From Narcine bancroftii (lineage: Eukaryota), in assembly GCF_036971445.1 (NCBI RefSeq), contig NC_091473.1, forward strand, positions 192,634,001 through 192,698,000: a stretch of 64,000 bases of DNA. Direction: 5' to 3'. Under the pieces are notes generated by a model. It was not told where the DNA came from, searched no databases, and worked only from the letters and a program-made list of their open reading frames with translations. Of this stretch, positions 6,761 through 8,200 are shown piece by piece (position 1 is the stretch's first letter; every line of letters begins with the position of its first letter). The position numbers were made by a program, and so were the translations under genes.

Positions 6761-8200
6761 CGGAGCCCGAGCACCCACGATCAGGCTAGGTTGGCAGACC
6801 CTTTCCTGCAGATTAAAGTTATGGACATGGAAGAATCCTTTTTAGTGGATACGGGAGCCAGATTTTCAACACTCACTGGCACTGAATTTCAAGATAAAAC
6901 ATCATCCTCTAGCGTCCAGCTGATAGGGTTCTCGGGTACACCAGAAAATCTGCCGTTTTCTACACCACTAGTCACTTCTGTGGCGGGACAGACTTTTACA
7001 CATCAATACATTTTGTCAGCCAGGTGCCCTACCAATCTCTTGAGCAGAGACCTGTTGGTCAAGTGCGGAGCATCGATCCTTTGTGGACCCAGCGGAATAG
7101 AGGTCACCTTTCCAAATGGATATTCTATGAACTGTTCATTAACTACACTGCATTCCAGTTCTCAGATGTTGTTGGCGGCAGCTGGAGGATCCGCGTCTGA
7201 GGGACAATGGGCTGACATTTACTGGGGGCTGTTGGAACCGGAGGACCCACAAAAGGGAGGGCTGCTAAAGCTTTATAATCAATGGAAGCCGTGGATCCAG
7301 ACGTTACACCCGTATACCCCTCCCTCGGACCCTCCCCATATGACCCTCTTTTACGATAGGGATAGGGATGGGGATGAAATGTATCAGCATGCCTTTTATG
7401 AAGAGGTAGAGGGCATGCAATGGGAGATTAATTCGGACTACATAGTGGTAGGAAAGGAGGGAGTGGCCGCTGCGGTGGCACTGACATCTGAACAGCTGGA
7501 ATGGTATGAGATGGCAGGTGAGGCCATTCCTCATGTCACCCTTGCAATTGGCACTACTCACCAGGCAAAAGATTTGGGACCGAGGTGTCGGAACTTGATG
7601 TCCCTAGCTGACTGGTCCGATATCCAAATACCGACAGTGCAGTTCTCCTCATCTGGTCAGGGAAACATGATTTTGTCCCCGACATATGATCGAGTCCTCC
7701 TTGAGCATAGACAGATTGAACGCTTTCATGGTAGAGAGAAGATGGATCACCCCGACTCGGCCCCTATGCTAGATTCTCTCCCTGAGAACCTGTGGTCAGT
7801 GGGATCAGCAGATGTGGGTTTTTGTCAGCAGGTTGATCCCATAACCTTCGAACTGTCAGATTACACCCCTATTTGGCAGATGCAGTATCCCCACAAACCT
7901 GAAGCTGAGGAAGGTTTGGCAGAGACCATTGATGGCCTTATGTATTCAGGGGTGTTGGAACATTCGCGTTCTAGTTGGAATACACCCATTTTACCTGTTC
8001 CTAAACAAGACACGGGCAAATATCGGATGGCCCATGACTTAAGGCGCATCAATGGTATTGTGAGAACACCCACAGTTCCAGTACCAAACCCATATACTGC
8101 CATGACTGCTTTAACCCTTAACCACAAGTGGTTCTCTTGCATAGATTTAGCGAATGCTTTCTTTTGCTTGCCGCTGGCAGAACCATTAAGAGATGCTTTC
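6761..8200 (+). pseudogene. pol: ERV-A protease + 2H-phosphoesterase domain + N-terminal part of RT
   Basis: LVDTGA and NLLSRDLL (protease); PHMTL and PHVTL (2H); WNTPILPV, HDLRRIN and IDLANAFF (RT). The LPQG/YxDD block is missing. Confidence 0.92.

What the first reader, a model, noticed from the sequence alone, without database searches (positions are those of the whole stretch)
7210..7700. 2H-phosphoesterase domain embedded in retroviral Pol between protease and RT: candidate antagonist of nucleotide immune signalling
Seen: a ~160-aa insert with two intact HxT motifs 65 residues apart (DPPHMTLFYD, His at 7337; AIPHVTLAIG, His at 7532), in one open frame with the protease, even though the RT core downstream is deleted. 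Known: paired Hx(T/S) motifs define the 2H/LigT-like fold. Viral members (coronavirus NS2, rotavirus VP3 C-terminal domain, phage Acb1, some poxvirus enzymes) degrade 2-5A or cyclic dinucleotides such as cGAMP. As I recall, 2H domains have been noted in some fish retroviral polyproteins, but I know of no demonstrated function there. Inference: a virion-delivered enzyme that blunts cGAS-STING or OAS-RNase L sensing during reverse transcription, or that processes cyclic-phosphate RNA/tRNA ends.
Basis: partly seen in the sequence, partly recalled or inferred. Interest (0 to 1): 0.72.

Follow-up and report, generated by a model that had tools for sequence, protein, structure and literature searches.

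The report
CNPase-like enzyme in ray retrovirus Pol
A defective endogenous retrovirus of a cartilaginous fish carries, between its protease and reverse transcriptase, a conserved two-histidine domain predicted to fold like the host enzyme CNPase, so it likely opens cyclic-phosphate RNA ends rather than destroying cGAMP or 2-5A; such domains were already reported in fish retroviruses, and I found no test of their function.

Summary
Window 7169-7717 encodes a ~183-aa domain between protease and RT of a class I ERV, with His codons at 7337 and 7532. Both motifs are kept in 29 of 29 genome copies that hold the domain (30 chosen by RT) and in 24 of 27 database relatives. dN/dS is 0.29-0.45, close to protease. 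The model (pLDDT 92) matches vertebrate CNPase (Z 17.1) far better than coronavirus NS2 (7.7), Acb1 (7.6), rotavirus VP3 (7.2) or poxvirus cGAMP PDE (6.7), and has a helix where CNPase has its unique alpha7. Activity is untested. The domain is already reported in fish retroviruses (PMC9503650, PMC4977317), and this scan noted it twice before on other DNA. Intact motifs beside a deleted RT mean little, because the LTRs differ by only 1.35%. Verdict: new member of a known kind, function still open.

The parts
7169..7717 (+). CNPase-like 2H phosphoesterase domain (~183 aa) inside Pol
   Evidence: AlphaFold2 pLDDT 91.8; Foldseek best hits CNPase/RICH; VIA-align Z 17.1 to 2xmi; hhalign to 27 CNPases probability 85.7%, E 5e-6
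7337..7348 (+). first H-x-T-hydrophobic motif; the aromatic five residues after the His lines up with CNPase Phe235
   Evidence: Tyr in 26 of 26 aligned rows, Phe in 27 of 27 CNPases
7532..7543 (+). second H-x-T/S-hydrophobic motif, followed by a loop and a helix placed like CNPase alpha7
   Evidence: (helix at domain residues 133-144)
7163..7174 (+). predicted protease cleavage site (Gln at P2) at the N-terminal edge of the domain
   Evidence: Gln in 23 of 28 rows, 2 of them gaps; lies in a low-confidence linker of the three-domain model; WDSV sites have P2 Gln (PMC3185560 passage)
7712..7723 (+). possible second P2-Gln site at the domain/RT edge (less certain)
   Evidence: Gln in 18 of 28 rows, 2 of them gaps; lies at the end of the domain's last predicted strand
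6797..7078 (+). retroviral aspartic protease
   Evidence: Pfam RVP E 4.6e-8
7718..8190 (+). N-terminal part of RT, cut off by a ~380-nt deletion near 8190
8190..9461 (+). RT connection and RNase H remnant
   Evidence: Pfam RT_RNaseH_2 and RNase_H
9359..10516 (+). integrase, in another frame than RNase H
   Evidence: Pfam rve, Integrase_H2C2
5282..6760 (+). gag remnant with one CCHC knuckle, interrupted by a stop; ends in TGA in frame with pro-pol (read-through layout)
10517..10945 (+). env remnant with a large internal deletion
   Evidence: its two ends match the two ends of the ~1.9-kb stretch in env-bearing copies
2068..2879 (+). 5' LTR, preceded by target-site copy ACAC
2883..2900 (+). primer binding site (tRNA-Trp type; assignment recalled, not tested)
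   Evidence: sequence
10959..11770 (+). 3' LTR after a polypurine tract, followed by ACAC
   Evidence: 11 mismatches in 815 nt against the 5' LTR

Best explanation
The element carries a two-histidine domain between protease and RT that is predicted to fold like CNPase and likely works as a 2',3'-cyclic phosphodiesterase, carried into the particle with Gag-Pol, where it would open cyclic-phosphate ends on nuclease-cut RNA (primer tRNA or genome). Shown: position, motifs, conservation, purifying selection. Predicted: the fold, the alpha7-like helix, and release from the protease at a P2-Gln site. Inferred: capture long ago from the CNPase / tRNA-ligase-CPD lineage; CNPase-type chemistry (2',3'-cyclic phosphate to 2'-phosphate with a free 3'-OH); and a benefit to reverse transcription from healing blocked RNA ends. 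The domain may stay attached to the N-terminus of RT.
For: All 41 Foldseek rows shown are CNPase or RICH (best E 6e-7, TM 0.68). VIA-align over 48,161 chains: CNPase Z 17.1, 171 aligned, rmsd 3.8; next Z 8.7. A profile-profile alignment puts both His on the CNPase His. The Phe235-like aromatic and Gly324-like glycine are invariant in 26 of 26 rows. A helix follows the second motif where CNPase has alpha7, which PMC4643303 (passages) calls absent from other 2H enzymes and links to substrate size and stereospecificity. The three best Atlas feature hits are tRNA-ligase CPD clusters (score 0.96-0.97; family on 18-63% of members). dN/dS 0.45 (bootstrap 0.28-0.76) over 28 RT-chosen copies, protease 0.27; 0.29 against one diverged copy, protease 0.26. 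A review names these fish ERV domains CNPase (PMC4977317 passage).
Against: No activity was measured. Identity to CNPase is only about 14%, and no Pfam CNPase match was found. Two CNPase pocket residues differ: Arg307 is not kept, and the Val321 position is Lys or Arg in 25 of 26 rows, so specificity may have shifted. The Atlas recognition value (1977) is below the level at which its scores are strong. A second, abundant class I ERV family in the same genome has no insert (protease-to-RT motif distance 220 aa in the 7 of 11 loci where both motifs were found, against 434), so the domain is not needed by every retrovirus in this host. A 2'-phosphate next to the new 3'-OH may still hinder priming (my own reasoning).
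Confidence: 0.5

Rival explanations
1. Same CNPase-type chemistry, but the purpose is immune evasion: the enzyme would destroy 2',3'-cGMP and cyclic-phosphate-ended RNA fragments, which are ligands for TLR7, TLR8, RIG-I/MDA5 and NLRP3.
For: Fits the fold evidence equally well. 2',3'-cGMP is the TLR7 pocket-1 ligand (PMC11470960, summary and passages). Cyclic-phosphate RNAs stimulate RIG-I/MDA5, NLRP3 and TLR8 (PMC8406329 passage).
Against: Untested. 14 of 20 copies examined have the short env-deleted 3' end, which suggests spread inside cells, where endosomal sensing matters less; selection may, however, have acted in env-bearing progenitors. Activity at endosomal pH is unknown, and host TLR7/8 genes were not checked.
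Confidence: 0.18
2. The domain has shifted to cyclic dinucleotides and degrades 2'3'-cGAMP made when cGAS senses reverse-transcribed DNA.
For: The host has STING and Mab-21-family genes (6 matches, cGAS not told apart). 2H enzymes have been turned to cGAMP more than once (PMC11410667 passages). The family-wide Lys/Arg at the Val321 position could bind an extra phosphate (inference).
Against: Acb1 (Z 7.6) and penguinpox cGAMP PDE (Z 6.7) are much more distant than CNPase (Z 17.1). The alpha7-like helix is present. Not every viral 2H enzyme cuts cGAMP: NS2, NS4b, VP3 and AKAP7 did not (PMC8406329 passage).
Confidence: 0.14
3. The domain is a 2-5A phosphodiesterase that blocks OAS-RNase L, like coronavirus NS2 or rotavirus VP3.
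For: This host has OAS-domain exons in one cluster (6 matches). The superfamily is shared.
Against: NS2 Z 7.7, VP3 Z 6.6-7.2, AKAP18 Z 7.0-7.2, against 17.1 for CNPase. All 21 named relatives are from teleosts, and some teleost genomes lack OAS (PMC2852836 passage); I did not check those species one by one. Host RNase L was not searched.
Confidence: 0.05
4. The domain is kept mainly as a structural or binding module (Gag binding, assembly, an RT accessory domain), and catalysis is secondary.
For: Host CNPase binds lentiviral Gag and blocks assembly (PMC5434554 passage citing Wilson 2012). The C-terminal boundary and the residues after it are nearly invariant, and the C-side cleavage site is uncertain.
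Against: The His and Thr/Ser of both motifs and the base-stacking aromatic are among the most conserved positions, as expected of a working enzyme.
Confidence: 0.08

Closest known systems
CNPase-like / 2H domain of epsilon and epsilon-like fish retroviruses (WDSV, WEHV1; Mazumder 2002 and Basta 2009 as cited by PMC9503650 and PMC4977317)
   Same: Same kind of domain in the same kind of virus. The best viral-library fold matches are Q2VF30 (unnamed in the tool, E 8e-16), a WEHV1 polyprotein (E 2e-9) and a WDSV polyprotein (E 6e-9). 27 database Pol proteins hold it in the same place.
   Different: The host here is a cartilaginous fish, and the family has at least 150 copies. The two primary papers were not held, so I saw only the reviews' sentences on them.
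Vertebrate CNPase / fish RICH catalytic domain (mouse 2xmi, human 1woj, goldfish 2i3e)
   Same: Nearest solved fold (Z 17.1). Both His motifs, the Phe235-like aromatic, the Gly324-like glycine and an alpha7-like helix are present.
   Different: About 14% identity, no Pfam PF05881 match, no N-terminal PNK-like domain, Arg307 not kept, Val321 position Lys/Arg, embedded in a viral polyprotein.
Viral 2H immune antagonists: MHV NS2, rotavirus VP3-CTD, phage Acb1, avian poxvirus cGAMP PDE
   Same: 2H superfamily, paired H-x-T/S motifs, encoded by a virus.
   Different: Structurally remote (Z 6.6-7.7, 111-130 residues aligned). By PMC4643303, 2H enzymes other than CNPase lack helix alpha7.

Membership tests
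2H phosphoesterase superfamily | two H-x-T/S-hydrophobic motifs | tested here: met
   23 of 10,000 shuffles give such a pair
2H phosphoesterase superfamily | two-lobed 2H fold | tested here: met
   model pLDDT 91.8; the 21 rows at Z 5.8 or more are 2H proteins or unnamed relatives as far as their titles tell
2H phosphoesterase superfamily | the two His meet in one active site | tested here: inconclusive
   no coordinates returned; inferred from alignment of both His to the CNPase His and their places at strand starts
Vertebrate CNPase family | nearest structural neighbour is CNPase | tested here: met
Vertebrate CNPase family | helix alpha7 after the second motif | tested here: met
   predicted helix at residues 133-144, starting 11 residues after the second His; feature from PMC4643303
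Vertebrate CNPase family | base-stacking aromatic (Phe235) | tested here: met
   Tyr in 26 of 26 rows; Phe in 27 of 27 CNPases
Vertebrate CNPase family | Arg307 and Val321 in the pocket | tested here: not met
   the Arg307 position is Ala/Val/Ser/other and the Val321 position is Lys 16, Arg 9, Met 1; CNPases have Arg in 27 of 27 and Val/Leu in 27 of 27
Vertebrate CNPase family | ribose-contacting Tyr168 | tested here: inconclusive
   a Tyr-Trp pair kept in 25 of 26 rows maps near it, but only in a low-probability global alignment; the mouse numbering there is recalled
Vertebrate CNPase family | Pfam PF05881 match and N-terminal PNK-like domain | tested here: not met
   no PF05881 match; the genome search with PF05881 found only the host gene. 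So: CNPase-like, not a member
Vertebrate CNPase family | hydrolyses 2',3'-cyclic nucleotides to 2'-nucleotides | not testable with these tools
   needs an enzyme assay
Viral 2-5A phosphodiesterases (NS2, VP3, AKAP7 group) | closest fold lies in this group | tested here: not met
   Z 6.6-7.7 against 17.1
Viral cGAMP phosphodiesterases (Acb1, avian poxvirus PDE) | closest fold lies in this group | tested here: not met
   Z 7.6 and 6.7 against 17.1
Viral cGAMP / 2-5A phosphodiesterases | cleaves cGAMP or 2-5A | not testable with these tools
   needs an enzyme assay
Class I (gamma/epsilon-like) ERV | LTRs, target-site duplication, PBS, PPT, gag stop in frame with pro-pol, one CCHC knuckle | tested here: met
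Class I (gamma/epsilon-like) ERV | gamma-type env in the family | tested here: met
   an env-like frame with an immunosuppressive-domain-like stretch in the 1 copy read (motif recognition recalled); 3 of 20 copies have the long 3' stretch
Epsilon-like ERV | RT groups with epsilonretroviruses in a tree | not tested
   no reference RT sequences were on hand; the fold matches to WDSV and WEHV1 polyproteins point that way

The most novel reading that the evidence does not exclude
Aquatic retroviruses captured CNPase and package it as an immune antagonist of a kind I did not find described: an enzyme that erases 2',3'-cyclic-phosphate danger signals (TLR7/8 and RIG-I ligands) or, through its Lys/Arg-altered pocket, cGAMP. 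It would be a retroviral enzyme against nucleotide-based sensing, made from a host protein whose mammalian form restricts lentiviruses.
Probability: 0.25. Interest if true: 0.72.

Novelty: new member of a known kind. Interest (0 to 1): 0.33.

Why it matters
The domain's presence is not news; it was reported for fish retroviruses in 2002 and 2009 according to two reviews. What a fifth Pol enzyme does for a retrovirus is still open: my ten paper searches turned up no functional test. This copy adds a high-confidence model, a residue map against CNPase, evidence of purifying selection in a large young family in a cartilaginous fish, and a sister family without the domain as a natural contrast. 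That turns a vague 'immune antagonist' guess into a ranked substrate panel. CNPase's own physiological substrate is also unknown (PMC3290555, abstract start), so a viral use of this chemistry would bear on that question too.

Tried and rejected
1) Sequence-only searches barely see the domain: Pfam 2_5_RNA_ligase2 E 0.05, below cut-off; phmmer against PDB gave one chance hit; the profile search of A2 showed only proteases and protease-like DDI proteins in the 60 of 90 rows displayed.
2) The first dN/dS run (2H 0.30) used 30 copies chosen for likeness in this very domain, so it is biased low. I replaced it with RT-chosen copies (29 of 30 loci hold the domain, 28 used after dropping 1 frameshifted copy) and one diverged copy. 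Copies are related, so bootstrap intervals over codons are too narrow.
3) 'Selective retention of the domain after RT loss' was rejected: the copy is young, and the same RT deletion is in 4 of 29 other copies.
4) 'Released at both ends as a free protein' is only half supported. 6 of 320 columns are at least 60% Gln, so a conserved Gln alone proves little, and the C-side Gln lies in the last strand.
5) Expression: no RNA holder listed; 4 runs of 1 study were only guessed to be RNA; not used.
6) The broad search of protein representatives was still queued and was not collected, so the range outside fishes is untested.
7) Recent capture from this host's CNPase is unlikely: the domain's profile scores teleost, toad, ray and hagfish CNPases alike and low (11-20 bits in the 13 rows printed). 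The donor is not resolved.
8) Papers not held: Mazumder 2002, Basta 2009, Fodor and Vogt 2002, Schwer 2008, Wilson 2012. PMC11410667 has 0 hits for 'retrovir'; PMC4422223 has 0 for 'CNPase' or 'phospho'. No supplements were read.
9) No complex prediction was run, as no binding is claimed.

Full report
Observation. The frame 6761-8224 (+) reads protease, an insert, then the first part of RT. Such a pair arose in 23 of 10,000 shuffles of the domain. The domain is about 183 residues (7169-7717).

The element. It is a class I ERV. The LTRs lie at 2068-2879 and 10959-11770 (11 mismatches in 815 nt) with a 4-nt target-site duplication. There is a primer binding site at 2883-2900 (Trp type, recalled), a polypurine tract, and a gag stop in frame with pro-pol. 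This copy is defective: gag is interrupted, RT lacks about 380 nt near 8190, integrase lies in another frame, and env is reduced to about 430 nt. G000 (3.3 Gb) holds at least 150 scored matches at 92-100% identity among 1,724 candidates. Of 20 copies read at the 3' end, 14 have the short env remnant, 3 a stretch of about 1.9 kb, 1 an intermediate one, and 2 gave no integrase match; the one long stretch I translated is env-like and split over two frames. The host is a cartilaginous fish: its CNPase exon is identical to a database protein labelled as from an electric ray, and the next hits are rays and sharks. The closest short database relatives of the domain are ray and shark proteins at 83% and 58%.

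Conservation. 27 longer database proteins hold the domain in the same place; the 21 that are named come from teleosts. 24 of 27 keep both motifs. In the genome, 29 of 30 loci chosen by RT hold the domain, and all 29 keep both His and both Thr. Pairwise dN/dS over 28 of them is 0.45 (0.28-0.76), against 0.27 for protease and 0.73 for the end of gag. Against one copy at 83% identity it is 0.29, against 0.26 for protease and 0.11 for RT. The domain was therefore under purifying selection while the family spread. That this particular copy keeps its motifs is explained by its youth.

Fold. AlphaFold2 with 26 sequences gave pLDDT 91.8 and pTM 0.86. All 41 Foldseek rows shown from the PDB are CNPase or RICH (best E 6e-7). 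The wide structural search gives CNPase Z 17.1 over 171 residues (rmsd 3.8). It is followed by a bacterial CPDase 8.7, LigT 8.3, Usb1 8.0, MHV NS2 7.7, Acb1 7.6, AKAP18 7.2, rotavirus VP3 7.2 and penguinpox cGAMP PDE 6.7. In the viral library the best matches are Q2VF30 and the WEHV1 and WDSV polyproteins. Profile-profile alignment with 27 CNPases gives probability 85.7% and lines up both His. The Atlas places the sequence near tRNA-ligase cyclic phosphodiesterases, with a weak recognition value.

Pocket. Using the features in PMC4643303 (passages): the Phe235-like aromatic and the Gly324-like glycine are invariant in 26 of 26 rows, and a helix sits where alpha7 does. Arg307 is not kept, and the Val321 position is Lys or Arg in 25 of 26 rows, whereas 27 of 27 CNPases have Arg and Val/Leu. 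It works like CNPase by fold and by most landmarks, but it fails the family's Pfam model and lacks the PNK-like domain, so I file it as CNPase-like and not as a member.

Delivery. As part of Gag-Pol the domain would be packaged (established knowledge of retroviruses). WDSV protease sites carry Gln at P2 (PMC3185560 passage). A Gln followed by hydrophobic residues is kept at the N-terminal edge in 23 of 28 rows and at the C-terminal edge in 18 of 28 (2 gaps each). In a model of protease, domain and RT start, the first site lies in a low-confidence linker and the second at the end of the domain's last strand; pTM is 0.43. Release from protease is likely; release from RT is open.

Mechanism. Most likely (0.5) it is a CNPase-type enzyme that opens 2',3'-cyclic phosphates on cut RNA ends in the particle or RT complex. 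The rivals follow. The same chemistry could be used to erase innate-immune ligands (0.18; PMC11470960 summary and passages; PMC8406329 passage). It could hydrolyse cGAMP (0.14): the host has STING, but the fold is far from Acb1 and the poxvirus enzyme. It could be a non-catalytic module (0.08). It could hydrolyse 2-5A (0.05): this host has OAS exons, but the family thrives in teleosts, some of which lack OAS (PMC2852836 passage). A neighbouring class I family in the same genome has no insert in the 7 of 11 loci where both flanking motifs were found, so the domain is an accessory and not essential to all such elements. None of the catalytic steps was tested.

What is known. PMC9503650 (passages) states that 2H domains occur in fish retroviruses and WDSV, citing Mazumder 2002. 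PMC4977317 (passages) states that epsilon-like fish ERVs can encode a CNPase, citing Basta 2009. Neither primary paper was held. Ten searches (listings seen, passages read for the papers cited) showed no functional test, but most subscription journals are outside the library and I read no supplements. Two earlier notes of this scan reached the same CNPase-like reading on other genomes. I saw them only after my own fold results, and they are not independent support.

Verdict. A real, conserved and selected domain; a new member of a kind known for two decades; function open and easy to test in vitro. Interest 0.33.

Noticed in passing
window 12614-19106: A second class I ERV right beside the first (LTRs 99.6% identical, Pro-type PBS by recall, protease and RT start deleted here). 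Its family has at least 150 matches and no insert between protease and RT.
   Followed up: partly
window 3096-4754: A 26-nt unit repeated 63.8 times at 99% identity inside the 5' leader of the ERV; not checked in other copies.
   Followed up: no
window ~8190 and 10517-10945: The RT deletion is shared by 4 of 29 other RT-chosen copies and the short env remnant by 14 of 20 copies, which suggests deleted sub-lineages copied in trans.
   Followed up: partly
window 56515-59182: Two long frames without apparent introns that match SNF2-related and helicase C domains, in different frames; possibly a processed pseudogene.
   Followed up: no
window 45911-46720, 51578-54167: LINE-type endonuclease and RT pieces.
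   Followed up: no
P0020, P0024, P0027, P0028: Some database relatives have lost a motif or part of the domain, as expected of decaying copies or gene-model errors.
   Followed up: no
window 7715-7750: A short stretch just after the domain (His, Gly, Arg, Glu, Asp positions) is nearly invariant across relatives and belongs clearly to neither the 2H core nor the RT core.
   Followed up: no
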